64,000 bases of DNA from Fistulifera solaris (taxonomy: Eukaryota), in assembly GCA_030295235.1 (NCBI GenBank), contig AP026135.1, positions 62,001 to 126,000 of the forward strand, in the 5' to 3' direction. Below, in pieces: positions 5,433 to 61,119 of the stretch. The position numbers were made by a program, and so were the translations under genes. Position 1 is the first letter of the stretch; the number at the start of each line of letters is the position of its first letter. The notes below the pieces were generated by a model. It was not told the origin of the DNA, made no database searches, and worked only from the letters and a program-made list of their open reading frames with translations.

Positions 5433-5541
5433 TTGTTACGGAGTAGTATTACTTTTTATTATTTACAAATTGAATATTTGCGCTCCATCATCAACTATAG
5501 CTCCATCATCAACTATATTACTTCTCGCAAAGTATATGGGT

Positions 5542-6793: not shown

Positions 6794-6956
6794 GATAATT
6801 GATTTGCAGTCTAGTTCAATTAAAGCGTTCATGATTCATGAAGAAGTGCGATGACATATTCGATGCAATTATTCACAAATAGACACGCCGAAATAGCTGT
6901 GGATGGTGGCTTATTCACGTAGACCGAAAATCTGTGAAAAAAAATAAAACGGAGTG

Positions 6957-7014
6957 CCGGTACCGGTACCGGTACCAGGTACCCGGTACCAGGTACCCGG
7001 TACCAGGTACGGTA
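6957..7014. repeat. GGTACC-rich short tandem repeat upstream of NAA38 copy 2
   Basis: ccggtaccggtaccggtaccaggtacccggtaccaggtacccggtaccaggtacggta. Confidence 0.85.
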
Positions 7015-29407: not shown

Positions 29408-30448
29408 ATGATGACGGCCGGTCGTTCGACGATGTTCCGTCTTTATTCTAGGACGACAACAACAACGACGAGGACGAAAAGACACCTCATTGCTTTCTAT
29501 TATTCCACACAATCATCACGCGATAAACAACCAAACAAGAAGGATGATCTGCAACATACGATTCAAATGGTTCAAACATACGATCCGGCGGGTTATTTAC
29601 CCGGTCAATTGCTTCCCACAACCCAAATGCAAGAAGGATATTATGCCGTTCGGAGTTTTTGGGTCGAAACGGGCTTACGTAAACAATCCTCCCTTGGTAG
29701 CATTGCAGTCACATCGCCTCAGGAATATTTAAACGCCTGGAAAGATGGTATTACCGCTGTCTTTGATGACAACAACCAAGACAAAGCGTCATCACATCCC
29801 ACATTACGACTTTTACATTCCTTGCGTCCTCATTTTCCCTCGTCCGATCCGTTTTTGCAAGTTTTGCAAGCCCGACAATACGAATTAGAGAGTCCCCAAT
29901 TTCGAACTTTACAAGAAGTGAAACAACACGCCACGCGATCGTGTGGGAATTTGTTGTCCTTGGTTCTTTGGACGGGAGATAAAACACCCACGACGCATCC
30001 GTACAGTCATCAAGCGGCGCAGTGTTTGGGACAAGCACATGGTCTTGTTCAAGCGTTGCGGACCAGTATTCCCGTCTTGTCGAATACGGGACGACTGTTA
30101 TTGCCGCAGGATTTGTTGCAACAAGAAGGTGTCGCGAGTCCACGGTATTTGTTGTCGGCGTTGAGTCAAGGCGATGAAGTGGGGACGGCGGCACTGGCGC
30201 GTGTCGTGGAACGGATGGCGGTGGAAGCGCGACACTCTCTCCAGAAAGCACGGCAATGGCAAACCGAGGTCCGGGAAGAATCGTCATCGGCTGTCTTGTT
30301 GCCCAGTTATGCCTTGGAAACGTATTTGGATCGTTTGGCAGCGAAACAATATCGTCTCACGGATCGGAGTTTGCGGAATGTGAGTTGGATGGAGCATGCG
30401 CAATGTTCGTTTCGCATGATTTTTGGTTACTACAATCGGACCTATTAA
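29408..30448 (+). CDS. NDUFAF6: NDUFAF6-like complex I assembly factor (squalene/phytoene synthase fold), mitochondrial presequence
   Basis: Arg/Thr-rich presequence; VQTYDPAGYL, YYAVRSFWVE, HPTLRLL, LGQAHGLVQALR, GRLLLPQDLL. Confidence 0.75.
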   Translation: MMTAGRSTMFRLYSRTTTTTTRTKRHLIAFYYSTQSSRDKQPNKKDDLQHTIQMVQTYDPAGYLPGQLLPTTQMQEGYYAVRSFWVETGLRKQSSLGSIAVTSPQEYLNAWKDGITAVFDDNNQDKASSHPTLRLLHSLRPHFPSSDPFLQVLQARQYELESPQFRTLQEVKQHATRSCGNLLSLVLWTGDKTPTTHPYSHQAAQCLGQAHGLVQALRTSIPVLSNTGRLLLPQDLLQQEGVASPRYLLSALSQGDEVGTAALARVVERMAVEARHSLQKARQWQTEVREESSSAVLLPSYALETYLDRLAAKQYRLTDRSLRNVSWMEHAQCSFRMIFGYYNRTY

Positions 30449-32547: not shown

Positions 32548-32607
32548 CGGTACGGTACCGGTACCAGTACATGGTACGGTACCGGGTACCGGTACCAGGT
32601 ACAGTAC
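32548..32607. repeat. GGTAC(C)-rich short tandem repeat in the PITH/TMEM14 divergent intergenic region
   Basis: cggtacggtaccggtaccagtacatggtacggtaccgggtaccggtaccaggtacagtac. Confidence 0.8.
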
Positions 32608-34866: not shown

Positions 34867-35673
34867 ATGTTAATTAGATTGATTCTGACTTTATTATGTT
34901 GCTGGAGTATTGCGGGTTATCAGCCTTCACCACGTAAATTATCAGCGGCATCATGGCAGAGAAGTATAGACAAGGCAGCAGTCGAAACGGTTTTATCGTA
35001 TTCTTCGCGACGACGCTTTTTCGGTCAGTTCGCATTGACTGTTACGGCAGGTTCGGTGATCACTACCCAACCTGCTTTCGCGGCTACCTTCACACCCGGA
35101 GGTACATTGGTCGATCGACCCGTCGGCGTCACCATCAACAATCCCGAAGCATCCCCGACGCGCGCGTTTGACAACAGCAACGTCTTGTTTCAACAAGATT
35201 ATTTCTTCAAATTCGGAACGGCCGCCCCCTGGATTGACGAAAGCAATCGATTGGAGTTTCCCACCCAAATGCCCTTTGTCCGAGTGCAACAACGCTACGA
35301 TGCTTTGCAGAAATATGGGACACGCGTGCAACGGGGCTTAGAACAAGTCGCGAGTTTATTGTCAACGAAGAATACAGAGGGAACTGTTCTGGAAGCGGAT
35401 CATCCCGTTTACGCGTTACGGGCACTCGGATTGTTGGCGAATAGTTTCTGTGCGTCCGAAAATACGGGGACGACCAATGAACTCTTGTTGGCGCGGTATT
35501 ATGTCAACGAAATCTATCTCGGCATCAACGATATTCGAATGAATCCTGATCGAACCAAACAAGCGTATCGCTCGTGTCTCAAAGCAACAAACTCTTATTT
35601 GAATATGATGAATCGAGTTATTACGCCCAAAGTGGGTGAGCCTTTTGTTTTGTTAGATATCACGGACGCCTGA
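34867..35673 (+). CDS. Probable plastid thylakoid-lumen protein of unknown function
   Basis: Signal peptide, then SSRRRFF + hydrophobic stretch + AFA (Tat-type lumen transit pattern). Confidence 0.65.
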   Translation: MLIRLILTLLCCWSIAGYQPSPRKLSAASWQRSIDKAAVETVLSYSSRRRFFGQFALTVTAGSVITTQPAFAATFTPGGTLVDRPVGVTINNPEASPTRAFDNSNVLFQQDYFFKFGTAAPWIDESNRLEFPTQMPFVRVQQRYDALQKYGTRVQRGLEQVASLLSTKNTEGTVLEADHPVYALRALGLLANSFCASENTGTTNELLLARYYVNEIYLGINDIRMNPDRTKQAYRSCLKATNSYLNMMNRVITPKVGEPFVLLDITDA

Positions 35674-35801
35674 GGACAATCGCTAATTTGTGAAAAACCA
35701 GGTTCATATGCTAGGCAGTTAATAGAACAATTAATCATGCAAGTTCTTTCTATATGATTATTATCTTTGTACATTCTCTATTTCATTCATAATCATTTCG
35801 T

Positions 35802-36307
35802 TTAAACGAGGAAACCCAAGTCACCACCGTTCTTCTTGGCCAATTTCACCAAATTCGTTCGTAGCGTTCTAGGTGCTTCGGCCAACCATTCTTCCATATC
35901 AATGGATCCATTCTCGTCACGATCGGCACGAGCAAAGATACCCTTCAGTTGTTTTTCCTTCAAAAACGCACCAAAACCCAATGCTTGTAACGCGACGACG
36001 AGTTCATCTTCTTCAATGACACCATTCTTGTTGATATCTGCCAATTCAAACAATTTTCGCAGCATCGTCTGGCCAAATTCTGTTTCGGCGGTATCCACGA
36101 AACGACCAATGACGTCCGAGTGTAGGGAAATGGCGTTGCCGCGGATCTTGTTGAGACGTTCCTCTCCCAATACTCCCTTGGCGGCAAGAACCACGGGAGA
36201 AAAGATGCCGTTCTTGTGATGATCATCAGCTTTCTTCTTGGGAGTATTCTTTTTGGGTGGTTCTTGTGGAACCAAATTGTGGTCGTGGTCAGCGGTGGCC
36301 ACAGAAG
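35802..36307 (-). pseudogene. 5'-truncated copy of the EF-hand gene
   Basis: Identical to 36960..37465 but lacks the presequence and promoter. Confidence 0.7.
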
Positions 36308-36831
36308 CATCCCCGACGCGCGCGTTTGACAACAGCAACGTCTTGTTTCAACAAGATTATTTCTTCAAATTCGGAACGGCCGCCCCCTGGATTGACGAAA
36401 GCAATCGATTGGAGTTTCCCACCCAAATGCCCTTTGTCCGAGTGCAACAACGCTACGATGCTTTGCAGAAATATGGGACACGCGTGCAACGGGGCTTAGA
36501 ACAAGTCGCGAGTTTATTGTCAACGAAGAATACAGAGGGAACTGTTCTGGAAGCGGATCATCCCGTTTACGCGTTACGGGCACTCGGATTGTTGGCGAAT
36601 AGTTTCTGTGCGTCCGAAAATACGGGGACGACCAATGAACTCTTGTTGGCGCGGTATTATGTCAACGAAATCTATCTCGGCATCAACGATATTCGAATGA
36701 ATCCTGATCGAACCAAACAAGCGTATCGCTCGTGTCTCAAAGCAACAAACTCTTATTTGAATATGATGAATCGAGTTATTACGCCCAAAGTGGGTGAGCC
36801 TTTTGTTTTGTTAGATATCACGGACGCCTGA
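36304..36831 (+). pseudogene. 5'-truncated copy of the lumen-protein gene
   Basis: Identical to 35146..35673; lacks the presequence and promoter. Confidence 0.7.
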
Positions 36832-36959
36832 GGACAATCGCTAATTTGTGAAAAACCAGGTTCATATGCTAGGCAGTTAATAGAACAATTAATCATGCAA
36901 GTTCTTTCTATATGATTATTATCTTTGTACATTCTCTATTTCATTCATAATCATTTCGT

Positions 36960-37592
36960 TTAAACGAGGAAACCCAAGTCACCACCGTTCTTCTTGGCCA
37001 ATTTCACCAAATTCGTTCGTAGCGTTCTAGGTGCTTCGGCCAACCATTCTTCCATATCAATGGATCCATTCTCGTCACGATCGGCACGAGCAAAGATACC
37101 CTTCAGTTGTTTTTCCTTCAAAAACGCACCAAAACCCAATGCTTGTAACGCGACGACGAGTTCATCTTCTTCAATGACACCATTCTTGTTGATATCTGCC
37201 AATTCAAACAATTTTCGCAGCATCGTCTGGCCAAATTCTGTTTCGGCGGTATCCACGAAACGACCAATGACGTCCGAGTGTAGGGAAATGGCGTTGCCGC
37301 GGATCTTGTTGAGACGTTCCTCTCCCAATACTCCCTTGGCGGCAAGAACCACGGGAGAAAAGATGCCGTTCTTGTGATGATCATCAGCTTTCTTCTTGGG
37401 AGTATTCTTTTTGGGTGGTTCTTGTGGAACCAAATTGTGGTCGTGGTCAGCGGTGGCCACAGAAGAAAAGATGATGTTGCTCGGTGGGGCAACAACCGAG
37501 TGAGGTCGAATCACAAAGGCTGCTGACGACATCATCATGGCGGAAGAAGCCATGATTGTCGCAATTAGTTTCAGATTTTTACGGTTCTTCAT
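36960..37592 (-). CDS. Plastid-targeted two-EF-hand calcium-binding protein
   Basis: SSAAFVIRP (ASAFAP-like); EF loops DINKNGVIEEDE and DRDENGSIDMEE. Confidence 0.85.
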   Translation of the reverse strand: MKNRKNLKLIATIMASSAMMMSSAAFVIRPHSVVAPPSNIIFSSVATADHDHNLVPQEPPKKNTPKKKADDHHKNGIFSPVVLAAKGVLGEERLNKIRGNAISLHSDVIGRFVDTAETEFGQTMLRKLFELADINKNGVIEEDELVVALQALGFGAFLKEKQLKGIFARADRDENGSIDMEEWLAEAPRTLRTNLVKLAKKNGGDLGFLV

Positions 37593-38083
37593 GTTTGCTT
37601 TGCAAAAAGGGGTGATTGTAGAATGATAATGTTTCTTTGCAACTTGTTTGTTTTATGAGAACATGGGAAAAGATAACGCAGAGAAAGCAATGGCTGAACT
37701 GATGCTGACGAAAGCTTGTTGTTGGCGAAACACGAACCAAAAAAGTGCTCACATTGTGAGAAACTGACTCATTCGCATCGGAAATTGGAACATTCGACTG
37801 AGTTCCGATTCGTGGAAGTTCTCTGACTATCGAGCATTGTGTGGCCAGCCGTCTGCAGTTGCTGTTTCGGAATACGTGGAATGTACACCTCAGTGCGGAA
37901 TATCGACACTTTGTGACTCTGATTCAGAAACAAGAAGATGACACGTCAGTTTGTAGAGTCAAGCTAGAAGTAGGACTTTTCTGAGTACTACTTGGTTTGT
38001 CGTCTCTCGTTCTTCCCCACGCTTCCATGCCTTCGTCACCGTTCACACCTCACACCGTGCCAAGCACGGAAAAGGGAACAGGG

Positions 38084-39235
38084 TGACATGACTCACAAGG
38101 AGATTAGAGGAGTAATAGAGGATATCACGGTAATGATGGATATTATATATTATGTAATGAATATGGAATCGAATAGAATGAGATCCGTTCTCATAATATG
38201 AGAACCGTTCGGATAATAAAGGACCGACGACGACAGACCGTAAGGTCACTGCATTCTGCCTCCAAAAGTTTATGTCGAAGACGAAGGCAAAAAGATAAAC
38301 TTTTTGAAAAAAATAATGCCGTCGGACCGCATCGGATAGCAGGAGGAAAAAAAGGCTGAGAAGATGAAAACTTTTAATGAAGTGAAAAACCTCTTTAAAA
38401 AACCTCCTTTGAATGTGGATAATCTGTGTAAAAAGAATTGTGTCAATAAGTTCATCTCCTCTTTTCGAGTGAGGTAGAGGCTGCTTTCCCCTGATCTTCT
38501 CCCTTTCATAAGAGAGATCTTTTACTGATTTTGAATCTCCTCTTTTGAGTGAGATCAATGGCTGTTTTTCCGTTGATCTTCTCCTTTTTATAAGATAGAT
38601 CTTTGAGTTGATTCTCCTCTTTTCGAGTGAGATCATTGTTTAATTGAAGTCTCCTCTTTATGAGTGAGATCTTTCTTTGATTCAAGTCTCCTCTTTCGAG
38701 TGAGATCTTTGTTCAATTCAAATCTCCTCTTTTCGAGTGAGATCTTTTTATTCAAGTCTCCTCTTTATGAGTGAGACAAAGGCTGCTTTCCCCTTCGTTC
38801 TCCTTTTGAGAAATCGAATAAAATGTGGTCATTTCAATTATCCTTTTTGGATGATAAATAATCGCAAGTCTCTTTTCTGCTTTGCGATAAAAACTGGTAA
38901 GATTGTAACTTTCTTTCAATGTAAAGAAACAAGCAATATTCGAAATACTTTCCTTTTGTATCAATAGATTTTCATCGTTCCATTTCTCTTGATGTCGATC
39001 TTTTTCAATCGTTTTCTTTTTCATCTTATTCTCCTGCAAGCGTAAGAATTGTGATGTGATGTGATCACAATGACATGACTCACAAGGAGATTAGAGGAGT
39101 AATAGAGGATATCATGGTAATGATGGATATTATATATTATGTAATGAATATGGAATCGAATAGAATGAGATCCGTTCTCATAATATGAGAACCGTTCGGA
39201 TAATAAAGGACCGACGACGACAGACCGTCAGGTCA
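38084..39235. mobile_element. Non-autonomous LTR-like (TRIM-like) element with 165-bp terminal direct repeats
   Basis: 38084-38248 and 39071-39235 differ at 2 positions; termini TGAC...GTCA; 822-bp AT-rich interior with no RT, integrase or transposase. Confidence 0.75.
38455..38812. repeat. Array of ~10 hairpin-forming repeats (core TCTCCTCTTTTCGAGTGAGATC), period 34-41 bp
   Basis: Units at ~38455, 38493, 38536, 38575, 38613, 38650, 38687, 38723, 38757 and 38798. Confidence 0.9.
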
Positions 39236-39503
39236 CGGCACAGGGAACAGCGTGAAAAGTGACTCCCGAAAATCGGAACTCTGAACTCTGAACTCTCCGA
39301 CTCCGCGCTATTGCAACGCACTCATCGGCGTGTCGGCGTGTCTGACACACGACAAAGCGAGATCGGCATGACGATGTGGGAAACGGTCAGCAAACCGAAG
39401 GAACAAATGAACAAGTGATGGCTTGTGCCATCCATGATTGCATAGTCCAATGCGAAAACCGTTCTTTCATTTTGTCTTCGTAACGAGTCTTCATAAAAAT
39501 ACT

Positions 39504-39983
39504 ATGAGCAAAATGACCTTGATTTTATTGATCACCTTTCTCGTGTTGAGCCTTCACAGAACATCTGGTTTCGTGTCAACGACGCCCAGAAATATGCACG
39601 CATTCGGTTTATCGGCTGTCACGCGCCATGAAGAAGTACGCCCTGTTCCCGTTGTTATGCATATACAAGAACTACTCGGTCGACAGCGCTGGCAGCAGCT
39701 GCAATTGGATCATCATTCGCACTTGATCGTTGGTTTGGAGAATGCCAATCCCGAATTCGGCCGCAATGTTTTGTCACAACTGTTTGATTCGAGTGCCACT
39801 CCTGGCATGAGTGAGTCTCAACTGGATCGGGCACTGCGATCACTGGGATATGTCTGGCTGCGTCAACAGCAATTGAACAAAGTATTTCCTCACGCGAAAT
39901 CGGTCAAGGCCCGTGATTTGAAGCGTCTTTTGGTGGGAAATCCTCATCGACTGAGAAATGCGCTGCTCAACTTGGCGGCCTGA
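39504..39983 (+). CDS. Diverged paralog of the EF-hand protein lacking both EF loops; signal/plastid presequence
   Basis: EFGRNVLSQLF / ALRSLGY / LRNALLNLA align with EFGQTMLRKLF / ALQALGF / LRTNLVKLA. Confidence 0.7.
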   Translation: MSKMTLILLITFLVLSLHRTSGFVSTTPRNMHAFGLSAVTRHEEVRPVPVVMHIQELLGRQRWQQLQLDHHSHLIVGLENANPEFGRNVLSQLFDSSATPGMSESQLDRALRSLGYVWLRQQQLNKVFPHAKSVKARDLKRLLVGNPHRLRNALLNLAA

Positions 39984-40970: not shown

Positions 40971-41905
40971 GGCGATGAGATTTGTAAACGATTGTGATGC
41001 TTTCTCGTCCGAAGATCGGCTTTTTTGTTGTCATCGCTGTGCTTGATCGCATGCTGGCAGTGTTTCAAAGAATAAGAAGAGTTGTCTGACGTGTGCGCGT
41101 GCGAACGAGAACTCATGACTCACTAATGAGGACGAATTGCTCGAGTCACGAGGCGTATGTCATCAGATTATTTTACAAGGGTAAAAAATAGACTTGATAA
41201 CATTTATTCCTAATTTCCTAAAGTTAGAATGCAATTTTGACATTCGACTGATTTTTCCGTTGTCTTTTCTATTTTCTCACAAATATTTCAAACTCCCTGA
41301 TGGTTGAACATAGATTTTGAACAAATACCAGGTACGGACTTTAGAAACATAGAGAACAAAATAAAAAGGCAGATTCGGTCTATCTCCGTTGAAAATAATT
41401 ACGGACCAGAAGCCAAAGAAAATGCAAACGAACGTCAAATTTGCATTTCTGCCTTGAGGAAATTAGGAATAAATACTACTAGTATATACGGAGTATGTGT
41501 TATGATAAAAAAAATAAAAAGGGTACAGATAAAAGATTTCCTCGCGAATGAATCGTTCGTGTTTGCTCACCAAGTGAAATCGAAACACTGCGAATTCAAA
41601 CGAGGAGGGCTCTTTTACTACTACAAAACGGCGAAACGGATCGAAAGAGCTTCCGAGTCGCTTCATCTGGCTCTATCATGCTCCGAACCTTCGATTTTAC
41701 TGTATACAAATAGTGTAGCTGGACGAGGAACGCAAAAGTCAATCTTCTCACGAAAGTTTAATTTATGCCGTTTCAGGCGCAACGTGAAGTAGAGTTCTCG
41801 AAAAGCGTTACCCACCAAAAAGAGAATGAGACGATGCGAAGAACTTTGTTGCTTTCTGGAAAACCACATTGCTACGGTAACAAACCGATTTGAATCATCC
41901 TTCCA

Positions 41906-47834: not shown

Positions 47835-50800
47835 CTATTCGGCGGCCCGATCAAAAACATTGGTGTGCGGAGAGGGAGCCGCCAATTCCAGCAATTCCTG
47901 TGTACTCGTATCCAGCAGTGAATCCCATTCAAAGTAACTGGGCTGGGAGTTGCATTCGAAACAGAACGGGCCTGGAGGATTTAGTTCCCAATCCACTTCC
48001 TCTGTTTCTTCGCATTGCGTCAGGCTGAACATCTGCGTCGTGTCGACATCCGTACGACCTTCGAGCTGTTCTCCCCAAATACAAAGGTTCTGTGCGAAGA
48101 AACGACATCCTCGGAACATTTCTTTCATGCTGCGGATGCTATCCAATTGCCAGGATGATAAATCTTGATTAAACGCGGATGCCGACAAGAACATTTGTTC
48201 CATGCTTTGCACACGAGAGACATCCCAGTCGGATAAATCAGCGTTAAACGAGGAAGCCCAGGAAAACATGCCGCTCATGTCCGTGACACTCGCTACGCTC
48301 CATGTCGATAGGTCGCTCGAAAAAGACGAGGCCTGGGAGAACATTTTGGTCGTGGTAGTCGCGTTGGACACCGTCCAGCTGGACAAATCGGCATTGAATC
48401 GGGAGGCGCCTTCGAACATGGAAGTGAAGTTGGTGACACTCGACACGTCCCAATTGGACAAGTCTGCATTGAAGGAGGCAGCAGCACGAATACGGTTGCT
48501 GGAGAATAGTTCACTCAAATCTTGAATTCCAGAGAAGCACCAATTACCAATCTCGTCTCCGTAAGTGACTTCCAGATACTCGAGAGTATCTCCCAACAAA
48601 TAAAGATCCACTGCATTGACAAGTTCTTCTTTCGATGTAAAGCACTTGGTTGGAGCGGGGTTCGGGGTTGGGGTTGCTGTGGTGCTGGATGAGGGGCGCG
48701 GTGTCGGCGGAGGTGGCGCGGACGACGGCGGCTCCCCGGCAAACGCCCATATGTCTCGTCCTGAGAATACATCATCTACAAGGACTTCTTGAATGTTATT
48801 GCTGTCAAGTAAGGTACAGGTATTTGTTGTTTCATCGTCTTGCAAACCCTCGCAGTTGGCTTCAAAACCAATAAACGGCAGATTTGTAGTTGAATTCGTA
48901 CCAAAGCAGATTTCACATAAATTGCAAGCGATGCCATCAAACTCAATTTGGCATCGCAGTGCGAGGCCGTTGCGATTGTATTCAGTTGAGAAACACGCGT
49001 TTTCATATCCTTGGGATCTACTCAGGTATTGCACGCATAATTTTTCCGAAAGATTGGAAGCTGTCCCTTCAATTGGTTCTCGTGATGTTGATATAACGGT
49101 ATCACCGGATGTGAACACATTTGTTCCGGAAACAACCGGCGCAATCGAAGCTGTCGGTGGCGCCGCAGGAGACTTCGATGACGTTTGTGTTGGTGATGCT
49201 ACAGGAGACTGCGACAAGGAATCAGCCGTAGTCGGTCTCAAAGTTGTTGCCTGCGTACTATTTGTTTCCTCGTTGGACGAAATTGTTACAACTCTGGTGT
49301 CGGGGCCACGCAATGAAAGAACAATTATAGCCACAGTGAGAGCTGCAATGGCAGCCATTAACATGAGTATGACGTACTTGAGGGGTATACCCCACATGCT
49401 TGATTGCTTGTTGAAGTAGCTCTTCTCATTTTCCCACTCATCATCCTGACGATTGAACGAAGCCTTTACATCATTTCGAACCGCAGAAGATGGAGCGTGT
49501 TCAACCGACGCCTCGTAGTCCTTTTCATATTCATAATCGTAATCCTCTTCGCTATAGCCAGCATCGTCGTACTCACTTCTTTTTTCACCTCCATAAGCAA
49601 TGGCTCTGGTTTGGATTTGTTGATTGGGTACGTTGTGTTCTCTTTCTGCTGCAGGTGATGGGTGGATAGGTCGTTCATAGTCGTCGAATGCAGGGAAGAA
49701 CTCTGTATCGGTTTCAGGAAGCGATTCCCTTGCTTCCTGGGATGCTGAAAAAATCCATTACGTATTCTGAGTGTTCAGATTTCTTCCAAGATCCAGAGAA
49801 CTGGTCAGAGGCTGTTGATTCATTCCGACTTCTCGAAAAACCGCTGCCACTTCCTTTGTTCCCAGCGTGTCGATTGGGTACACCTTTCTCGTCGTCTGAT
49901 TCTGTCGGCGAGTCTTCATCGTCGTACAAGCTATCGTTCTCATATAAAGTCTCCCGTTCATCATCTTTTCTCAACGCCTCACTCTCGTGGTCAAAGCCAG
50001 GAGATAAGTGCCTGGCGTACAACCCTTCACTATAATGGGCTGAGCTACTTTCATCCTCCCTTGATGAAGCCGATTGTGATTCGCTTCTGCTGCGGTCATC
50101 GTCTCCTATCTTTCCATCACTTCCGTATCTATCATCATTGTCGATTGGTTGGGATCCGTCCCTATACCCGTTATCTCTTGGCTCACTATGTTCATCGTCG
50201 CCATAGGAACTATCATCTTCATACTCGTAGTCTACCTTACGAATAGCATGAGTTGCGTCATTGTACCCGATCTTTGCTTCGTCATCTGCATATTGGCTAA
50301 AGTGTGAAGTTTCGCTATCTTCATCGTCGCCTCGGGCGCTTCTGTCTTGATAAGAGTTGACGCTTCCTTCAACGCTGTTTCCAGACTCCAATATTGCTTT
50401 TCTCGCCAACGACCTGTCCTCGCCATTATCGTTTTGAGCAATTTCGTCCTCGGAATCATAATTACCGCGACCTCGCTGTCCCTGTCTATAGCCGTCTGTG
50501 TGATTCGCAACTTCTCTTTCTCCGGCATCATCACCGACTTGAGATTCAGCGACAAAACTGCCATTACTATGACCTTTGTTTTCAAGCTTGAATTGGGATT
50601 TGTGCCTGTCCTCGATTTCATTGCTGAATTGCGATCTGTCGCTGCGCTCGTCATTCTTGAAATCGGTGAAATGATCCTCATAATAATCTGAGCCTTCATC
50701 GTCGCCATAAGCCCGGTCCGGATCGTAATTATTATCATAGCCTTCAGCATCAACGTAAGCATCATGACTAAATTGTGATGCTTTGCCACTATCACTACTG

Positions 50801-53800
50801 CGCGATGTAATGTCTTTTGGTTCTTCTGTGTCGCCGCCATAGGCCGCGTTGTATTCTTCGTCTGCGAAACTACCTTCGTTTTGAATATCGTTGTCGGGCT
50901 CGGACTCGGACTCAAACTCGTGACACTGAGAACCGTCACTACCCCCGTAACTGTTTGCATCGTTCTCTTGGTCGTAGTCGCGGGGCTCGCTCTCCTGCTC
51001 AGCACCGTTGTATGATCCTGTAGCATCGCTGTCTGTCTCATCAGAATCCCGACCGTCATAATAGTCATTATCTCCTTCGTCAACATTACAGCCAGAAAAT
51101 GATCTGTCATTGTAATCGCCATCTCGAAGTAAGACTTCTTCTCCTTCTGCGTCGCTACCATAGACCGTGTTTTTATCTACGTCGCCGAAACTGCCGTCGT
51201 CTTGATTGTCGTTGTCGGGAACGGACACTAGTTTGGATTCGTGTCCGCTGTCACTGCTGCGGCTATATTGCGATCTATCACTGACCCCGTCGTTGTTTGT
51301 CTCATCATACTCCCGACCGTCATCATAGTCATTATCCTCATCGTCAACATCACGGCCAGAGAATGTTCCGTCATTGCAATCGCCATCATAAGCTGCTTCT
51401 CGCCCCCCTGCATCTGAGCCGTCGGCGTAGTCTCCTTGGTCTTTCTCAACAAAACTGGCGTCGTCTTGATTTTCATGATCAACTTCAGAGTTAGACTCCT
51501 GTAAATTGTCGATACTGTGGCTAGAATTCGATCCATTATTGCCCTTGTAGTCGTCGGAGTCATTCTCATCGCCGTCTGATCCGTTGTACTGAATTTCATC
51601 GTGATCTGCTAACCTCCTATCGTTGCAATGCTCGTCTTGGTCCGGTTGGTCATAATCATAGTATTCATCGCTGACATAACGGCCAGAATATGATTTGTTG
51701 CTGTTACTATCATTTCGGCCTCCGACTTCTTTTCCTTCCTGTGAGTGACCGCCATAGGCAGTGTCGTCCTCTTCGTCGGCGAAACTAACGTCTTCTTGAC
51801 TCTCCTCCTGATCGGAATCGGACTCGGGCTCCGACGTAGACTCATGCGCGCTGTCAGCATTGTGGCTAGATTGTGATCGATCACTGCCCCCGTATCCCCC
51901 ATAGTCATCTGCGTCGTTGTCGTCACCTTCAGACTCGGATTCGTTGTATTGTTCCTCGCCATCGTATGAGTCTCCGCTATTCCGATCGTCATTATAATCG
52001 CCATCTTCATTGTCAGCATTTCGACTGACGTGTGAACCGGTGCTGTAATCGTCATCAACTCCTTCCACTTCTGCATCGCCAGCATAAGATGCAGGCGTTT
52101 GGTAGTCTGCAAAACTGGCATCTTTATCAAAATCGTTGTCATAATCTGACCCCGATCCAGTTGACTGTCCATCGCTGCCCTCATAGAGCGCTGCGTCATC
52201 ATGACTGCCTGTTACTCCATCGTAAAGTTTATCGCCGCGGTCTGATGGTCCGTCACCGATGCTAGATTCGTCAATGTCTCCATCGTCGTCATAATCATGG
52301 TAATCATCATTGACGCTATTAGGACGTGATCGGTCACTGTGATCCCCAATATAATCAGATGCGTCACTGGCATCTTTTAAGTCAACGCATTCAGGTGCGT
52401 CATATCCTTCGCCGACAAAACTGTCATTGTTTTGACTCTGAATATTCGAATAATTTAACTGTAGTTCCGATTCGTATATACTGTCGATATTTTGGCTTCC
52501 TTGCGATCCATCATTGCTCTCATAGTCATCTGCATCGTTCTCATCGCCGCCGTGCGCACTGTATTGTCCGTTGCTACAAGTCTCCTTATTGTGTAGACTC
52601 TCACTGCACTTATCTTCTTCGTCTCCGAATTCGCGCCTAGAGTGCGATCCGTCGCTGTAATCACCATTACGATAAGACGCGTCATTGGTCTCTCCTAAGC
52701 CGTCGCAATCAGGTGCGTCGCACCCTTCGTCGGCGAAGCTGTCGTTGTTTTGGCTATGAATTATGAATTGGGGTTCCGACTCGTGTAGGCTTTCAATGCT
52801 GGGGCTTGCTTGTGATCCATCGTTGCTCTCATTGTCAATTGCGTTGTTCTCACCACCGCCGTCTTTCTTCTTATGGTCATGGCTGCGTACCAAAACCTCT
52901 CCATCGCTATACATCTCATCATCATGGTCCCAATCGTTAACATGATCATCACATTCATCGTCGACATTACGGCCGAAATGTGATCCGTCGCTGTAATCAC
53001 CATCATGGCCTAACGCTCCAGCTCCACGTACAACACCGTCCTCCGGGGCGCTGTAATCGAAACTTCTTTTATTTCGACTCTCTTGATTAAACTCAGATTC
53101 CCACTCGTGCAGCTTGTCGACATTTTGACTATATTGTGATAAGTCGCCTCCATAGTCTTCTGCGTCTCTCTCGTCGTCGCGCGATTCACCTTTATGTTCA
53201 TCGCCAGTCCCGTCACGGTCCAAATCGTCATTGACATCATCACATTCAGGGTCAACATTACGGCCAAGACTGAATCCGTTGCTGAATTCGCCGTCATGGG
53301 CTGCGATATCATCTTCTGCGTCAACGCCCTCAGCAGTACGATAGTCGTTGTCGGCGAAACTACCATTGTCAAATTTGGATTCGGACTCGGATCCACGTCC
53401 ATGGCTACTACCGCTAGAATTAGAGCCGTCGCTGCCATAGTAATCGTTTGCAAGGCCATAGTGCCCATCACCGAATATATTGCCTTGATCTTCATCTTCA
53501 TATTCGTCCTCACCATCAAGGCGACAAGGCGAACCTCTGCTTTCATCGTTGTCTTCGTACAGAACCCGGTTAGGATCATCGTGATAGTCGTCGGGAAAGC
53601 TACTATTGCTTTGACAATCGTTATCGGGCTCAGAATGCTGAGCGCTTCCTCTAGATTGGCTAAACTGTGATAAGCCACTGCAAGAAGTATTGGCTGTGTT
53701 GCCGCGATGTCCTTCGTCGTTTACGTGTACGTTGCTGGTGTTTCGAAATGATTGCGTGCGGTTGTTGTAAAAATCTTCCTCATCTGCATATTCCTTACCA

Positions 53801-56800
53801 GCTTCGGAGACGCCGTAAGAGACTATTATGCCAATGTTTGTTTCTGAAGACACTGCGGGATCGTGTGCATTATCGATACAATGACTAGAATCTGAAAAAC
53901 CATTATTGCCTCCGTTCTCTGTGTCATTTTCATTAGTGTTGATTTCGTCTACGCTTTCATTGCACCGTTCGCGGTCAGAAACTTCGCTGTAAGTGCCGTC
54001 GTGAGTTTCGTAGTGCTTGACATCAAGGCTCAACTGACTCTTGTTGTTGCTGAAATCCATACATTTGTCATTGCCTGCATCATCTCGGCTATTTTCGGTT
54101 CCGTTGTAATCGACATCTTCATTTTTCCTTTTGCAAGAAGAGCCGCGGTTTGATTTGGATTCTACTCCACCCTCGATGACAATTGCTACGCTATACTTCG
54201 TACTATCATGTTTGTACTCGATGTCCTCATCGCCCATCGTTTGGTTCCCTAGTCCAAGATCGTAGTCTTCGATGGTCTCATCCATTTCACCGCTTTCCAG
54301 CCCACTACCAGTACCGCTGGCGCTCGCTTGAGAACCCTGGCTGCAGCCTTCCTCAATGGCGTATCCGTTTTTTCTATCATATCTTGTATCGTCGAAGTTG
54401 TTGAAACTGTCGTTTTGATTGTCAATAACGTAGATCAATTGCGGACCATTACGGTAAGCGTGGCCTGCATTAGCATCTCTTCTGAAAAGGTCGTTAAATT
54501 CTATATTGTCTTTCATAAGGAGTGACTCGCCATCTTCCGCTGAGGCGCTACCGCCTGAATGGTCTTCTTCATGTCGTTCCCCGGTCATGTCACCGTCATA
54601 AACTGAGTGCGAAGCGTCGTTGCATTCAGCGCCAACGTATTCGTACTCCCTATCGACAATCTCACCCTTTGATTGCGAAGCGCCATTACAATCCTTGTCG
54701 TCACCGAGCACGCTTAAACAGTCTCGAGAACGATCCTTTTGTTTTGATTGTTATCGCAGTCACGGTTTTTGCCTTGTGATTCGCTGCTTTTCTCATCAGC
54801 AACTTTATCCTTGATGTCGGACTCAACTTGGTGCCCGATATTGACGTAGAAGCTTGATTTTGAAGTATTATTGTTATCAATACTTGTTGAAATGTCACTT
54901 TTAAAGTCGGCATCCACTTCCCCCAAATCACCGTAGAAGCTATTGTTTCTATCTTGCTCGACATTAAGACTCGTCTGTGACGCATCTTTGTTGGTCCCAT
55001 CGTGTTCTTCAGGGTTGTCACTAACATCGTCGTACTCGTTCTTCAAGCCAAGAATTCTAAACTCGTTACCATCGTTCTCTGCCTGTGATATTTTTTCCCC
55101 AGCTTCGATTTCCGCCTCATTGTGACAAGCGTTGGCATGCATATCAAAATTTTGGGTGCTCTCACAGAAATCTTCAAAATGCTCTTGATTTTCTTCCACA
55201 GGTCGACGTATCTGCAACGCGGTGATTTTGTCAACCCTATTTTCTTCCTCTTGGTCTCTCGAATCCAAACTCGCGTTTGCTCTCATACCATGATAACAAC
55301 TTGACTGTGATTTATCCAGACACTCCATCCAATCTAAAGCCCCATCGGCTTCGTGATCACTATGTTGATCACAAACGTCATTACTGCCACCAACGTACCT
55401 CGATGATGGTTCACCAATGAGCTCTTCTTCAATCCCAGTTTCATCAACTTCTTCAACGCTGTAAGAAGTTTCCGTCAATTGTGCATTATGGACATTGGTC
55501 GTTCGTGATTTTTCATAGAATTGTTGATCCTCCGAAACCTCTTCACTGCCGTCTTCGACAACGCCGTGATCATCGTCTCCATCACCAGTATTACTGTTGT
55601 CGCCTAAACGTGACGCGTCATTCTCTTGATCCTCCTCTCTAGTCAAAGTTTCATCAACTTCTTCCTCGGTGTACGACATTTCGTTGTCATTTCCATCGTC
55701 GTCGTGCCCGCTGGACCGTGACACTGACACTTCTATATCTTCCTCTTCCCATAACTCTTCGCTTGCTTCTTCACCGCCTACCAAACCGTCGTTTTCGTCT
55801 TCATTGTCGTCACACTCGCTTGACAGAGATTCGCTATGATACTCTTCATCATCTTCCGATGGATCCGCTCCGTGCATTTCATCCCTGCCGGAATTTTCAC
55901 TGTCATCATCCTTGTCCTTTGGGGCGTCTTGCGGATTTTCCTCATCACTATCAGGAAATTCAGTACTCGTCACCGAAAAGCTGCTGTCAAAATTCGATGC
56001 CGAGTACCGTGGATTTGCCGCCATTTCTCTCAACGCGGTGATAAGTTCTTCTTCTCGATCCGCAAATTGCTCTAACAAGAAATCAAGATTACCCAATTGT
56101 TCCGGCATCACGTTTGCCACGAGCTTTTCTAGTTTATTGCGAAGAGCTGCTTCGTCATCGTCTTCTTCATCACTGCCCCTGTCTGCCTCTTCCGCGCTGG
56201 GAGTGTTGGATTGTAAAATATCGCGAGTTTGATTGTCTTTGGAATTACTAACGACATGAAGCGGCGTCGTCTGTGGATTGCTAGCATTGCTTACTTCATG
56301 CCCAGCGTGTGAGAATTTAGTATCACAAGGTTTGGCTGAATCGTCTTGTACCGTAGCATGAACCTGCATGAAACTGTCTGCTTTGCTAGATGCGATTGAC
56401 GATTCTGTGAGCGGGGATTGCGATTGACTATGGGTCGAGGTTTCATCATGCTCAATAAAGGGATCTGTTTGAGCGTTTCCTTCCAATTTCTCATTCCTTC
56501 TCACTAAGCTGCCTGTAACACTTCTTCCTAGTGAATCGTCAATATCGTCTTGATCACTGCGTGAAATCTGACTGTTACGGCTGTCATCATCGCGGTGCGA
56601 CCCTCTCCGACTGTTATCCTGACTATACGAATTTTGGGTTTGGCTGTCTCGATGAGAGCTGCTGTCATCTCTACGGCGATGTCTTCCACGACTATGATTA
56701 CTTTCTCTATCGGCATGATTGGAAGCGTCATCATCCTGTCCCCTTGAACTCCCACTGCCGGCATCGTCGTCACCATACAAGTCCCCGCTTCCTTGACTGT

Positions 56801-57317
56801 TGTCCTCCACTTCCTGAATAGGTTTGTCACTGCTCAGACTATTGTCGTCAATCATGTGATGGGAACTATCTTGGCTGTCATCACCACTGTATTGTTGCCC
56901 CTCTTGACCGCTGCTATCGTCGTAAGTTGTTTCGCTGACGTCAATGGACCCCTCCTGCATCGATCTCTCCTGCCCACTATCGCTCATATTGCTGTGACTC
57001 TCCTTTGAGTAGCTTTGGTCGCTGTAGCTGTTGTTACTACTCTCCCTGTGACCTCCATCGTTGTAGCTTCGATTGTCGTCCGATTGAGAACTGTGATCCG
57101 AAATGTGATGGTGGCTTTGTTCGTCGCAGTACTCGCCATCGCTCTCGGCAGATGATACACTGGTCTGATCGCCACTATACTTTTTGCGAATGAGGAGATT
57201 GTTGTCGTGATTTGGCTTGTTTTTGTCACCGATTCGACCGTTCCCAGCGTCTTGTGTGTCTTCGCTGAGAATGCTGTAGTCATCAATCGGGGGAATAAAT
57301 CGCATTTTCCCCGGCAT
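47835..57317 (-). CDS. Giant (~3,100 aa) type II membrane protein: acidic disordered N-terminus, TM, Cys-rich domain, DUF285-type surface repeats
   Basis: ORFs of 894, 1665 and 520 aa join with single indels at ~54743 and ~49750; repeats FNADLSxWDVSxVTxMxxMF. Confidence 0.7.
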
Positions 57318-57873
57318 TAGAAAAATTTCTCTATTACGATCAGATAACAAACTAGAGGACTTTTCCAAGGAGTTGGTGATGCTTAACGTTGAGTTCAATT
57401 ACATCCAGCAAATAATACGCGTTCCAATAGCTGGAGAATAGAATGGATGAGGGCGAGAAGCGAGAAGTCACAAGTCGTCGCACAAAAGTCACAGGCCTCA
57501 CAATAATCCGTAGGGACCGTGACTTCACCGCTACGACATGAAGGCCCAATTAAGTGCATAACTTTCGTGAGATGGATTTTATTGCCCCGATTGGCAGTAT
57601 CTTTATAATTGTAGGAATTGTACCCTCCACACTTCTATGACTATTGGGTCTTGGTGAAAAAAGTCGAGCAGAGTAACAACGGACATTGTCGTCTGATACC
57701 TTGTGTAGAGTAGTCGATCTTAGCGTTTCCGTTCAAAAATGATTCGACAAAATCTCCTTGGAACCCGAAACCCCAATGCTCTTGGTAGTCTAGGTCTGCA
57801 TACAAAGTACGAAAACGTTCTAAAAGGGTCCTAGACAAGCTTCTTATTAACCAAAAATATTAGCCCCAGCAAC

Positions 57874-60800: not shown

Positions 60801-61119
60801 GATCCTCATCTTCGTATGATAGACTATCTTCGTCTTCGCTGCTACTTTCCGAGTATTTTCCCCTCCTTACGGCCACTGGAGACGATGGCTGATCCTCGTC
60901 ATCATACGAGCCGTCGTCGGAATTGCTGCTACCATCGGAATAATTTCCCTTCTTTTCGATAGGTAATTCATCAGGCTCCTCATCAGAACTTGAATCCTCA
61001 TCGCCGCTACTGCCGTTGGAATAGTGTCCTCTAGAGGAAGAGGCCCGCCGCTCCTCTTCCGATGATGAGCTATTATCGTCGTCCTCATCACTGCTGCTAT
61101 CTGAATATCCTTGACGCAT
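57874..61119 (-). CDS. Paralog: acidic N-terminus, TM, Cys-rich domain, DUF285-type repeats
   Basis: Indels at ~59215 and ~58115; SREPIEGT.S.LSEKLCV and YNRNGLA shared with the neighbour; reconstructed end PSPFCFRCGF*. Confidence 0.75.

What the first reader, a model, noticed from the sequence alone, without database searches (positions are those of the whole stretch)
38455..38812. Hairpin-repeat array as the cargo of an LTR-like element
Seen: ~10 units at a 34-41 bp period. The main unit (A)TCTC-CTC-TTTTC-GAG-T-GAGA(T) folds as a bulged stem-loop, and its variation falls mostly in the loop (TTTTC, TTTT, TTTAT, TTTC) while the stem is kept. A second type (GATCTTCTC...AGATC) follows a GGCTG(C/T)TTT linker, giving A-B-A-B-A-A-A-A-A-B order. 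Short AT-rich ORFs converge on the array from both sides (a 37-codon + ORF ending at 38476; the minus ORF ending at 38752). Inference: stem conservation suggests selection on structure, such as multimeric protein-binding/packaging sites, small-RNA precursors, or a captured virus-like intergenic palindrome array. It resembles CRISPR only superficially.
Basis: partly seen in the sequence, partly recalled or inferred. Interest (0 to 1): 0.75.

Follow-up and report, generated by a model that had tools for sequence, protein, structure and literature searches.

The report
Small retrotransposon carrying hairpin repeats
A 1.2-kb non-coding mobile element of the LTR-retrotransposon type, inserted between two diatom-like genes, carries ten short hairpin-forming repeats; plant elements are known to carry similar internal repeat arrays, so it is a clean but fairly ordinary insertion.

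Summary
The array is real. Ten units of 34-41 bp lie at 38453-38829 in the order A-B-A-B-A-A-A-A-A-B, and each can fold as a short bulged stem-loop on either strand.

It sits inside a 1,157-bp element (38084-39240). The element has 170-bp direct terminal repeats that match at 167 of 170 positions, TG...CA ends and a flush 5-bp target-site duplication, CAGGG. I found no coding capacity and no Rfam family.

My best reading is a TRIM-like non-autonomous LTR retrotransposon in a pennate-diatom-like nuclear genome. Its internal region carries a minisatellite of imperfect palindromes. This matches the internal satellite-like arrays of sugar-beet TRIMs and the tandem repeats upstream of the 3' LTR in Tat/Ogre/Retand elements (PMC13570524, PMC7004042, PMC11963269).

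The cores are much less variable than the spacers (Fisher p = 3e-6). Stem and loop do not differ significantly, and pairing is equally good on both strands. Constraint on the core is therefore plausible, but an RNA-specific structure is not shown.

There is no canonical primer-binding site and the orientation is unresolved. Copy number, an autonomous partner and covariation across copies could not be tested, because no host genome or viral collection was available.

CRISPR, retrozyme, Cassandra and miRNA-precursor readings fail their defining tests. Interest is low to moderate.

The parts
38079..38083 (.). Left copy of the 5-bp target-site duplication, CAGGG
   Evidence: Identical to 39241-39245 and flush against the TG end of the left terminal repeat. 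An offset 8-bp match, GGGAACAG at 38074-38081 and 39243-39250, is an alternative reading of the same flanks.
38084..38253 (.). Left long terminal repeat, 170 bp. It starts TG and ends CA, and contains a 20-bp unit repeated twice (38178-38218).
   Evidence: 167 of 170 positions match 39071-39240; 20-bp tandem repeat. TATA-like site at 38144 and AATAAA at 38215 on the + strand; GC 0.38 against 0.454 for the window.
38254..38263 (-). Polypurine-tract-like GGAGGCAGAA (9 of 10 purines), read on the minus strand and abutting the terminal repeat
   Evidence: There is no comparable tract next to the other repeat on the plus strand, where GTGATGTGATCACAA has 9 of 15 purines.
38254..39070 (.). Internal region, 817 bp, AT-rich (GC 0.35), with no recognisable gene
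   Evidence: no Pfam match and no credible homologue; no Rfam family; no similarity to the rest of the window; composition.
38453..38829 (+). Array of 10 hairpin-forming units in the order A-B-A-B-A-A-A-A-A-B. Units 1-4 follow an 82-bp higher-order period and units 5-8 a 37-bp period.
38453..38476 (+). Unit 1 (A core), loop TTTTC. The 3' arm reads GAGG, giving a T-G wobble on + and a mismatch on -.
   Evidence: -7.4 kcal/mol (+), -6.6 (-).
38479..38487 (+). Linker GGCTGCTTT before B unit 2
38493..38519 (+). Unit 2 (B core), GATCTTCTC...GAGAGATC
   Evidence: -5.6 (+), -8.8 (-).
38534..38556 (+). Unit 3 (A core), loop TTTT
   Evidence: -8.7 on both strands.
38560..38568 (+). Linker GGCTGTTTT before B unit 4. 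Together with its flanks it can form a further 11-pair hairpin (38551-38580).
38575..38601 (+). Unit 4 (B core). One stem position is broken (C-T in the A-type register).
   Evidence: -3.3 (+), -6.0 (-).
38611..38634 (+). Unit 5 (A core), loop TTTTC
38648..38671 (+). Unit 6 (A core), loop TTTAT
38685..38707 (+). Unit 7 (A core), loop TTTC
38721..38744 (+). Unit 8 (A core), loop TTTTC
38755..38778 (+). Unit 9 (A core), loop TTTAT, outer pair G-C
   Evidence: -11.0 (+).
38781..38789 (+). Linker GGCTGCTTT before B unit 10
38794..38817 (+). Unit 10 (degenerate B core). Inner stem TTCTC/GAGAA plus outer stem TTCG/CGAA.
   Evidence: weakest unit, 22.7 bits, -4.1 kcal/mol on +.
38752..39039 (-). 95-codon open frame that runs into the array; probably not a gene
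   Evidence: no Pfam match; 1 hit in 1.84 billion representatives (E = 2.1e-5, 27% identity, 6 stretches); that hit is itself a translated tandem repeat.
39071..39240 (.). Right long terminal repeat, 170 bp, TG...CA
39241..39245 (.). Right copy of the target-site duplication, CAGGG

Best explanation
The 1,157 bp at 38084-39240 are one insertion of a small, non-coding LTR retrotransposon of the TRIM type (terminal-repeat retrotransposon in miniature). It lies in the intergenic space between two divergently oriented paralogous genes of a pennate-diatom-like nuclear genome.

**Shown**
- Two 170-bp terminal direct repeats that differ at 3 positions.
- TG...CA termini and a flush 5-bp duplication of the target.
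- An AT-rich 817-bp interior with no gene and no known RNA family.
- A 10-unit array of imperfect palindromes occupying about 46% of that interior.

**Inferred**
- The element was copied through an RNA intermediate by Gag, reverse transcriptase and integrase supplied in trans by an autonomous LTR element. In diatoms these are mostly Copia-type. Integrase produced the 5-bp duplication.
- The array is a retrotransposon-internal minisatellite of the kind known in plant TRIMs and upstream of the 3' LTR in Tat/Ogre/Retand elements. It grew from an 82-bp A-linker-B-spacer unit, followed by local amplification of the 37-bp A-spacer unit.
- Growth came from replication slippage or from reverse-transcriptase template switching, both of which hairpins are known to favour.
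- The array is older than this insertion. Unit spacers differ by 33-55% while the two LTRs differ by 1.8%, so the array was carried by the element's ancestors.

**On core conservation**
The 20-bp cores have stayed nearly identical while the spacers diverged. This is statistically real. It is compatible with a cis-acting role in the element's own life cycle, but it does not show that role. I treat the array as having no demonstrated host function and commit to 'TE-internal palindromic minisatellite'. I put selection on the core at roughly one chance in three.
For: **Element structure**
- The terminal repeats 38084-38253 and 39071-39240 match at 167 of 170 positions, with TG and CA ends. CAGGG lies flush on both outer sides.
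- From the window's base composition, my arithmetic gives a joint chance of about 4e-6 for TG, CA and a 5-bp match at fixed positions.
- This differs from the two complete head-to-tail duplications elsewhere in the window (units of 821 and 1158 bp). Here only the 170-bp ends are repeated.
- A PPT-like GGAGGCAGAA abuts one LTR.

**No coding or known RNA**
- Pfam finds nothing for the 95-aa and 197-aa frames; 16 ORFs were scanned in all.
- There is no credible homologue among 1.84 billion representatives. None of 94 word-sharing candidates scored.
- No Rfam family reaches its gathering score. The best of 7 weak matches is 20.5 bits against a threshold of 45.

**Composition and context**
- The element is AT-rich: GC 0.35-0.38 against 0.454 for the window.
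- The array is real and confined to the element.
- Named relatives of a neighbouring gene are pennate diatoms (Mayamaea, Seminavis, Nitzschia, Amphora, Cyclophora).

**Literature (passages read)**
- 10 of 115 sugar-beet non-autonomous LTR families contain internal satellite-like arrays (PMC13570524).
- Tandem repeats between pol and the 3' LTR are common in Retand and Ogre elements, their origin is ascribed to abnormal strand transfers, and their function is unknown (PMC11963269, PMC7004042).
- TRIM sizes and LTR sizes are given in 10.1101/010850.
- 27 'putative TRIM/LARD' copies are annotated in Phaeodactylum (PMC5859163, Table 2).
Against: - There is no canonical primer-binding site. No TGG occurs within 30 nt of the inner edge of either LTR in either orientation, and there is no 8-nt self-priming complementarity. 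The window holds no tRNA gene to compare with.
- Orientation is unresolved. The PPT-like tract, and the purine-richness of the array and the right part of the interior, favour the minus strand. The TATA-to-AATAAA order in the LTR, and the purine-richness of the LTR and the left part of the interior, favour the plus strand.
- Only one copy is visible: the LTR 38-mer matches twice in the window, namely the two LTRs. Repetitiveness in the genome, the hallmark of a transposon, is therefore untested.
- The flanks also share an offset 8-bp match, GGGAACAG, because the target is itself a 7-bp tandem. This blurs the exact length of the duplication.
- At 1,157 bp the element exceeds the original <1 kb TRIM limit.
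- The non-uniform divergence (core far less variable than spacer) and the one double-sided pair change fit a purely neutral minisatellite poorly.
Confidence: 0.6

Rival explanations
1. The element is the same (TRIM-like LTR retrotransposon), but the hairpin cores are kept by selection because they act in cis for its propagation. Possible roles are reiterated binding sites for the Gag/nucleocapsid of the autonomous partner (a multimerised packaging or dimerisation signal), or reiterated polypurine tracts that serve as extra plus-strand primers.
For: - Cores are far less variable than spacers. Among the 7 A units, 3 of 16 stem columns vary against 19 of 20 spacer columns (p = 3e-6). In units 5-8 alone the figures are 1 of 16 against 10 of 17 (p = 0.002). 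The two LTRs differ by only 3 of 170, so the array is old yet the cores stayed intact.
- 88.8% of cells pair in the named structure, against 26-58% when the partners are slid by 1-3 columns.
- The closing pair is C-G in the A units and T-A in the B units. An outer pair occurs as A-T, G-T and G-C. The covariation score is reached by 3 of 500 shuffles.
- Unit 10 keeps a hairpin with a different outer stem, TTCG/CGAA.
- Every unit carries a 10-13-nt polypurine run on the minus strand, such as GAAAAGAGGAGA. There are 14 such runs in the element, against 2.07 runs per kb (both classes) elsewhere in the window.
Against: - Only one genomic copy and 10 related units are available. The double change is one event inherited by three units, and the tool text warns that related sequences can exceed shuffles without any structure.
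- Stem versus loop variability is not significant (p = 0.55).
- Pairing is equal on both strands, 71 of 80 against 70 of 80, so an RNA of defined polarity is not indicated.
- Junction variability created when each duplication arose could produce variable spacers without any selection.
- No packaging signal is known for diatom elements.
Confidence: 0.25
2. It is not a transposon. A local rearrangement copied a 170-bp segment to a site 987 bp downstream, around a pre-existing intergenic minisatellite.
For: - The window contains two other recent local duplications, with units of 821 bp and 1158 bp at 99.9-100% identity. This genome or assembly is therefore prone to them.
- There is no canonical PBS.
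- Only one copy lies in the window.
Against: - The other duplications are complete two-copy head-to-tail units with no duplicated flank. Here only the ends repeat.
- The ends are TG...CA with a flush 5-bp flank duplication.
- The whole segment is compositionally foreign: GC 0.35-0.38 against 0.454.
Confidence: 0.08
3. The array has been taken over by the host. It could be a cluster of palindromic binding sites for a dimeric DNA-binding protein (an enhancer or insulator between the two divergent paralogues), a bidirectional transcription stop, or a source of small RNAs.
For: - It lies between two divergently oriented paralogous genes, 36960-37592 (-) and 39438-39983 (+), which are 30% identical with E = 2e-11.
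- The palindromes are symmetric on both strands, as expected for sites in double-stranded DNA.
- Base composition switches strand at the array.
Against: - No expression or binding data are available.
- Stems of 7-9 bp are too short for Dicer substrates (general knowledge).
- The array is older than the insertion, so the conservation arose in the element's lineage rather than at this locus.
Confidence: 0.05
4. The array was captured from a virus (for example, giant-virus intergenic hairpins), or is a CRISPR-like or prokaryotic repeat array.
For: Only the superficial layout of conserved cores alternating with variable spacers.
Against: - The spacers are homologous to one another.
- An exact scan for the degenerate core in 596 Gb of bacterial and archaeal genomes found 0 matches.
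- blastn of the whole element found no match in 50,697 phage records or 72,556 plasmid records.
- The gene context is eukaryotic.
Confidence: 0.02

Closest known systems
TRIMs and other non-autonomous LTR retrotransposons with internal satellite-like arrays (sugar-beet families TRIM-03, -04, -11, -12, -14, -16, -19, -20, -33, -34; PMC13570524, passages read)
   Same: Both are short and non-coding, with LTRs of about 170-200 bp, a target-site duplication and a tandem array filling the internal region. Mean TRIM LTR length is 198 bp, and 22% of plant TRIM subfamilies exceed 1 kb (10.1101/010850, passages read).
   Different: Those elements are from plants and have tRNA-derived PBS motifs. Here the host is diatom-like, no TGG-type PBS is seen, the units are short imperfect palindromes, and copy number is unknown.
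Tandem repeats between pol and the 3' LTR in Tat/Ogre/Retand Ty3-gypsy elements (PMC7004042 and PMC11963269, passages read; Macas et al. 2009 is cited there and was not read)
   Same: These are family-specific short tandem arrays inside the element, near the PPT. Their origin is ascribed to aberrant strand transfer and their function is unknown. If the minus strand is the sense strand here, the array lies about 200 bp upstream of the PPT-like tract.
   Different: Those are large autonomous elements of 7-13 kb with gag-pol. No hairpin character is reported in the passages I read ('hairpin' and 'stem-loop' occur 0 times in PMC11963269; 'palindrom' and 'secondary structure' occur 0 times in PMC7004042).
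'Putative TRIM/LARD' class annotated in Phaeodactylum tricornutum (27 copies, 7,291 bp; PMC5859163, Table 2 read)
   Same: It is a non-autonomous LTR class already recorded in a pennate diatom.
   Different: No sequences or structures were available to compare, because the supplementary tables were closed. The mean annotated length there is about 270 bp per copy, so those are mostly fragments.
CRISPR arrays
   Same: Both have conserved palindromic cores of about 20-27 bp at a regular period of about 37 bp.
   Different: The spacers here are diverged copies of one another, the period varies from 34 to 41 bp, two core types alternate, the genome is eukaryotic and no cas genes are present.
Retrozymes and Cassandra TRIMs (non-autonomous LTR elements carrying a functional RNA module; PMC4918200 and 10.1101/2023.07.14.548913, seen only in a search listing)
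   Same: These are small LTR elements whose cargo is a structured RNA motif rather than a protein.
   Different: No hammerhead ribozyme or 5S-like sequence was detected. Rfam gives no hit at gathering score, and nothing better than 20.5 bits.

Membership tests
LTR retrotransposon, non-autonomous (TRIM-like) | Two terminal direct repeats (LTRs), typically 100-250 bp in TRIMs | tested here: met
   170 bp each; 167 of 170 positions match.
LTR retrotransposon, non-autonomous (TRIM-like) | LTR termini 5'-TG...CA-3' | tested here: met
   Both copies start TG and end CA.
LTR retrotransposon, non-autonomous (TRIM-like) | Target-site duplication of 4-6 bp flush with the LTRs | tested here: met
   CAGGG at 38079-38083 and 39241-39245. 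An offset 8-bp match in the tandem-like target is an alternative reading.
LTR retrotransposon, non-autonomous (TRIM-like) | Primer-binding site complementary to a tRNA 3' end (TGG...) next to the 5' LTR | tested here: inconclusive
   No TGG within 30 nt of either LTR inner edge in either orientation, and no 8-nt self-priming complementarity. No tRNA gene in the window and no host tRNA set, so an internal-tRNA or unusual primer cannot be excluded.
LTR retrotransposon, non-autonomous (TRIM-like) | Polypurine tract next to the 3' LTR | tested here: met
   GGAGGCAGAA (9 of 10 purines) abuts the LTR in the minus orientation only. It is short and has one interruption, so the support is weak.
LTR retrotransposon, non-autonomous (TRIM-like) | No gag/pol coding capacity | tested here: met
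   No Pfam match for the 95-aa and 197-aa frames. No credible homologue.
LTR retrotransposon, non-autonomous (TRIM-like) | Small size (<1 kb in the original definition; looser in later usage) | tested here: inconclusive
   1,157 bp, which is above the original limit. It falls within the 22% of plant TRIM subfamilies longer than 1 kb (10.1101/010850) and within the unified usage of PMC13570524.
LTR retrotransposon, non-autonomous (TRIM-like) | Dispersed multi-copy family, solo LTRs, and an autonomous partner with related LTR/PBS | not testable with these tools
   Only the two LTRs are found in the 64-kb window. No host genome or eukaryotic DNA collection was available.
CRISPR array | Near-identical repeats separated by unrelated unique spacers, in a prokaryote, usually with cas genes | tested here: not met
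   The spacers align to each other. The gene context is diatom-like. The core has 0 exact matches in prokaryotic genome contigs.
Retrozyme / Cassandra-type TRIM | Hammerhead ribozyme, or 5S rRNA-derived sequence, in the LTRs | tested here: not met
   The Rfam scan of 37800-39500 at E <= 5 lists 7 weak matches, none of them a ribozyme or 5S. The whole window gives 0 hits at gathering score.
miRNA / hairpin small-RNA precursor | Stem long enough to hold a ~21-nt duplex | tested here: not met
   Unit stems are 7-9 bp with a bulge. The length requirement is general knowledge.
Tat/Ogre/Retand-type tandem repeat array upstream of the 3' LTR | At least 3 tandem units lying between the coding region and the PPT/3' LTR of the element | tested here: inconclusive
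   There are at least 3 units inside the element. The position relative to the PPT depends on the unresolved orientation, and there is no pol gene to anchor it.

The most novel reading that the evidence does not exclude
The ten stem-loops are a selected, multimerised cis-signal. Examples would be reiterated nucleocapsid-binding or dimerisation hairpins, or reiterated polypurine primers. Such a signal would let a tiny non-coding diatom retroelement out-compete its autonomous Copia-type partner for packaging and reverse transcription. If so, it would be the first defined packaging-type module of a stramenopile retrotransposon, and a case where a TE-internal 'satellite' has a function.
Probability: 0.12. 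Interest if true: 0.5.

Novelty: new member of a known kind. Interest (0 to 1): 0.25.

Why it matters
It matters mostly for annotation. The finding marks a clean, fairly recent insertion of a non-autonomous LTR element (LTRs differ at 3 of 170 positions) between two genes in a diatom-like genome. Such small elements are barely described in that group: one paper lists 27 putative TRIM/LARD copies in Phaeodactylum, and my searches found no paper describing their structure.

The uneven conservation, with cores kept and spacers free, offers a small and testable handle on an open question stated in the plant literature: whether tandem arrays inside LTR retrotransposons do anything for the element. 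If other copies exist, covariation across them would answer that cheaply.

Tried and rejected
**Coding capacity**
- Pfam found nothing on the 95-aa and 197-aa minus-strand frames.
- An HMMER search of the 95-aa frame against 1.84 billion representatives gave 1 hit, E = 2.1e-5. That hit is a 1074-aa translated tandem repeat matched in 6 stretches, so I rejected it as spurious.
- A word-indexed search with the 197-aa frame found 94 candidates, none scoring E <= 0.1.

**Known RNA families**
- At E <= 5 there were only 7 chance-level matches, the best at 20.5 bits against a gathering score of 45.
- The whole window gave 0 matches at gathering score.
- I therefore rejected the retrozyme, Cassandra and snoRNA/miRNA-family readings.

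**Related DNA elsewhere**
- Exact scans of prokaryotic genome contigs with the degenerate A core and with an LTR 23-mer each gave 0 matches.
- blastn of the whole element against phage and plasmid records gave no match.
- blastn at word size 9 against the rest of the window gave no hit.
- The covariance model found no further units outside the array.

**Primer-binding site and strand**
- There is no TGG and no self-priming complementarity, and no tRNA gene in the window.
- I looked for a strand preference of the hairpins through G-U wobble. There is none: 71 of 80 cells pair on + against 70 of 80 on -. Whole-array fold z-scores differ (-2.66 on +, -6.33 on -), but this reflects the B units and linkers rather than the A stems.

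**Other checks**
- The bacterial promoter/terminator scan is not meaningful for a eukaryote.
- Not checked, because closed or unavailable: viral contigs, metagenome contigs, any eukaryotic genome collection, and paper supplements. The supplements that may bear on this are Maumus et al. Additional file 1 (LTR and TSD table) and Rastogi et al. Table S8 (TRIM/LARD list).
Full report
**1. The observation**

Reading 37900-39400 shows the array directly. Tandem Repeats Finder reports two overlapping arrays:
- 38454-38635: period 82, 2.3 copies, 81% matches, score 219.
- 38613-38776: period 37, 4.5 copies, 83% matches, score 230.

The 20-nt core TCTCCTCTTTTCGAGTGAGA occurs 5 times at up to 3 mismatches, all within 38455-38776. 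Shuffles give 0.01 expected, and 0 of 100 shuffles reach 5. A pattern that allows loop-length changes recovers all seven A cores.

With three B units, the array has ten units starting at 38455, 38495, 38536, 38577, 38613, 38650, 38687, 38723, 38757 and 38796. Spacings are 34-41 bp and the order is A-B-A-B-A-A-A-A-A-B. A GGCTG(C/T)TTT linker precedes each B unit.

Each unit folds on its own as a bulged stem-loop of 7-9 pairs, on either strand. The fraction of 1000 shuffles folding at least as well is 0.000-0.049 on + and 0.000-0.016 on -. The whole array folds better than shuffles, with z = -2.66 on + and -6.33 on -.

A covariance model of the unit, run over the whole window with filters off, finds exactly these ten units (22.7-46.1 bits). 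Nothing else scores above 13.3 bits.
- The array runs to about 38829.
- The + ORF ends at 38477.

**2. The frame around it**

The array lies between two 170-bp direct repeats, 38084-38253 and 39071-39240, which match at 167 of 170 positions.
- Both repeats start TG and end CA.
- The five bases outside them are the same, CAGGG, at 38079-38083 and 39241-39245.
- From the window's base composition, my arithmetic puts the joint chance of these three features at fixed positions at about 4e-6.
- The target is itself a 7-bp tandem (GGGAACA GGGAACA), so an offset 8-bp match can also be read. Either way the flanks are duplicated, which indicates an insertion.

The window holds two other local duplications (35146-37461 with a 1158-bp unit; 5249-6890 with an 821-bp unit). 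Both are complete two-copy head-to-tail units at 99.9-100% identity. That is a different structure from terminal repeats around a unique interior.

The element is AT-rich: GC is 0.38 in the LTR and 0.35 in the interior, against 0.454 for the window.

**3. Content of the element**

Protein coding:
- The 95-codon minus frame (38752-39039) and the 197-codon minus frame (38043-38636) have no Pfam match.
- The 95-aa frame has one hit among 1.84 billion representatives (E = 2.1e-5, 27% identity, six stretches). That hit is a translated tandem repeat, so I regard it as spurious.
- The 197-aa frame has no hit among 94 candidates.

Known RNA families:
- No Rfam family is present. There are 7 chance-level matches at E <= 5 and none at gathering score.
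- In particular there is no hammerhead ribozyme (retrozyme) and no 5S-like sequence (Cassandra).

The interior shares no similarity with the rest of the window. The element is therefore non-coding and non-autonomous.

**4. Retrotransposon hallmarks that are weak or missing**

- A polypurine-like GGAGGCAGAA abuts the LTR in the minus orientation only.
- No TGG-type primer-binding site lies within 30 nt of either LTR inner edge in either orientation. There is no 8-nt self-priming complementarity.
- The window has no tRNA gene.

Orientation is unresolved:
- For the plus strand: the order TATA (38144) then AATAAA (38215), and the purine-richness of the LTR and left interior (0.61-0.62).
- For the minus strand: the PPT-like tract, the 95-codon frame, and the purine-richness of the array and right interior.

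Every unit carries a 10-13-nt polypurine run on the minus strand, such as GAAAAGAGGAGA. There are 14 such runs in the element against one purine run on the plus strand. Outside the element the density is 2.07 runs per kb for both classes together.

**5. Variation within the array**

On a MAFFT alignment of the ten units, I counted variable columns:

| Comparison | Stem | Loop | Spacers | Test |
|---|---|---|---|---|
| 7 A units | 3 of 16 | 2 of 5 | 19 of 20 | stem vs spacer p = 3e-6; stem vs loop p = 0.55 |
| Units 5-8 only | 1 of 16 | 2 of 5 | 10 of 17 | stem vs spacer p = 0.002 |

The first comparison mixes linker-type and plain spacers. The homogeneous block of units 5-8 avoids that and still shows the contrast. 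The conserved entity is therefore the 20-bp core. The variable parts are the spacers, not chiefly the loop.

In the named structure, 71 of 80 cells pair (88.8%), against 26-58% when partners are slid by 1-3 columns.
- The closing pair is C-G in the 7 A units and T-A in the 3 B units.
- An outer pair occurs as A-T (3), G-T (2) and G-C (1).
- The covariation score is reached by 3 of 500 shuffles.

These double changes are few, and the B-unit change is one inherited event. The tool warns that related sequences can beat shuffles without any structure. On the minus strand 70 of 80 cells pair, so there is no sign of a polarity-specific RNA.

The LTRs differ by 1.8% while the unit spacers differ by 33-55% pairwise. 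The array therefore predates this insertion and was inherited from the element's ancestors.

**6. Host and locus**

A neighbouring ORF (29408-30448, SQS_PSY family, named by sources as NDUFAF6 or phytoene synthase) has 125 relatives. Those carrying organism names are pennate diatoms: Mayamaea, Seminavis, Nitzschia, Amphora and Cyclophora. The best foreign hit is 86% identical. DUF285 ORFs and long intron-free ORFs fit this context.

The insertion lies between an EF-hand gene (36960-37592, minus) and a 30%-identical paralogue (39438-39983, plus). It therefore sits in the shared upstream region of two divergently oriented genes.

**7. What it most likely is and how it works**

*Shown:* a 1,157-bp insertion with LTR-type ends and a target duplication, no genes, and a palindromic minisatellite in its interior.

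*Inferred:* it is a TRIM-like non-autonomous LTR retrotransposon. An autonomous LTR element mobilises it in trans, and integrase made the 5-bp duplication.

The array grew from an 82-bp A-linker-B-spacer unit (2.3 copies), followed by amplification of the 37-bp A-spacer unit. The likely routes are replication slippage or reverse-transcriptase template switching. The plant literature proposes the latter for such arrays (PMC7004042, passage citing Macas et al. 2009).

Whether the cores are kept by selection is open. Candidate cis-roles are packaging, dimerisation or extra plus-strand priming. The alternative is that the cores only look conserved because spacers vary at duplication junctions. I give the cis-function about one chance in four to one in three.

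**8. Comparison with what is known**

- Non-autonomous LTR elements with internal satellite-like arrays are described in sugar beet, in 10 of 115 families (PMC13570524, passages read).
- Tandem repeats between pol and the 3' LTR are frequent in Retand and Ogre elements, with origin and function stated as unknown (PMC11963269, PMC7004042, passages read).
- Plant TRIMs average 685 bp with 198-bp LTRs, and 22% of subfamilies exceed 1 kb (10.1101/010850, passages read).
- 'Putative TRIM/LARD' copies are annotated in Phaeodactylum (PMC5859163, Table 2 read).
- Maumus et al. 2009 describe diatom Copia-like CoDi elements. The passages I read mention neither PBS (as a sequence feature) nor TRIMs (PMC2806351).
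- My searches for diatom TRIM descriptions returned nothing specific. One search found 3 papers, none on the subject; one search found 5 papers.

This is therefore a new member of a known kind. The palindromic nature of its units is a detail not reported in the passages I read.

**9. What stayed unchecked**

- Copy number, solo LTRs, empty sites and an autonomous partner, because no host or eukaryotic genome collection was available.
- Eukaryotic virus sets and metagenomes, which were closed.
- Paper supplements, which were closed.
- Transcription.

**10. Verdict**

It is a tidy TRIM-like insertion with a hairpin minisatellite, of low to moderate interest (0.25).

Noticed in passing
window 35146-37465: A perfect two-copy head-to-tail duplication with a 1158-bp unit (exact run of 1162 bp, with a 4-bp GAAG overlap at the junction). 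It yields one full EF-hand ORF (36960-37592, minus) and one N-terminally truncated copy (35802-36338, minus). At 100% identity it is either very recent or an assembly artefact.
   Followed up: partly
window 5249-6890: A second two-copy tandem duplication, with an 821-bp unit. It is identical apart from one mismatch seen near 5952.
   Followed up: partly
window 36960-37592 (-) and 39438-39983 (+): The two genes flanking the element are divergently oriented paralogues: 30% identity over 120 aa, E = 2e-11. Only the first keeps recognisable EF-hand motifs in Pfam.
   Followed up: partly
window 41202-41229 and 41447-41474: A 28-nt inverted repeat pair, 89% complementary, with 217 nt between the arms. 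It is MITE-like, but I saw no clear target-site duplication in the flanks.
   Followed up: no
window 38453-38829, minus strand: Each of the ten units carries a 10-13-nt polypurine run on the minus strand, such as GAAAAGAGGAGA, resembling a retroelement polypurine tract. The element holds 14 such runs, against 2.07 runs per kb (both classes) elsewhere in the window.
   Followed up: partly
window 38254-39070: Strand composition flips at the array. The LTR and the left part of the interior are purine-rich on the plus strand (0.61-0.62). The array and the right part of the interior are purine-rich on the minus strand (plus-strand purine fractions 0.38 and 0.41). This is unexplained, and it is the reason the element's orientation is unresolved.
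   Followed up: partly
window 47835-61119: There are two DUF285 (BspA-type repeat) ORFs, at 47835-49397 and 57975-59174. Long ORFs with no Pfam match lie at 49714-54711 (1665 aa), 54714-57398 (894 aa) and 59074-61119 (681 aa). The region from 50 to 56 kb has strongly negative GC and AT skew.
   Followed up: no
window 6957-7010 and 32548-32607: Short GGTACC-based tandem repeats (period 7/14 at the first site, 6/13/25 at the second) occur at two distant sites.
   Followed up: no
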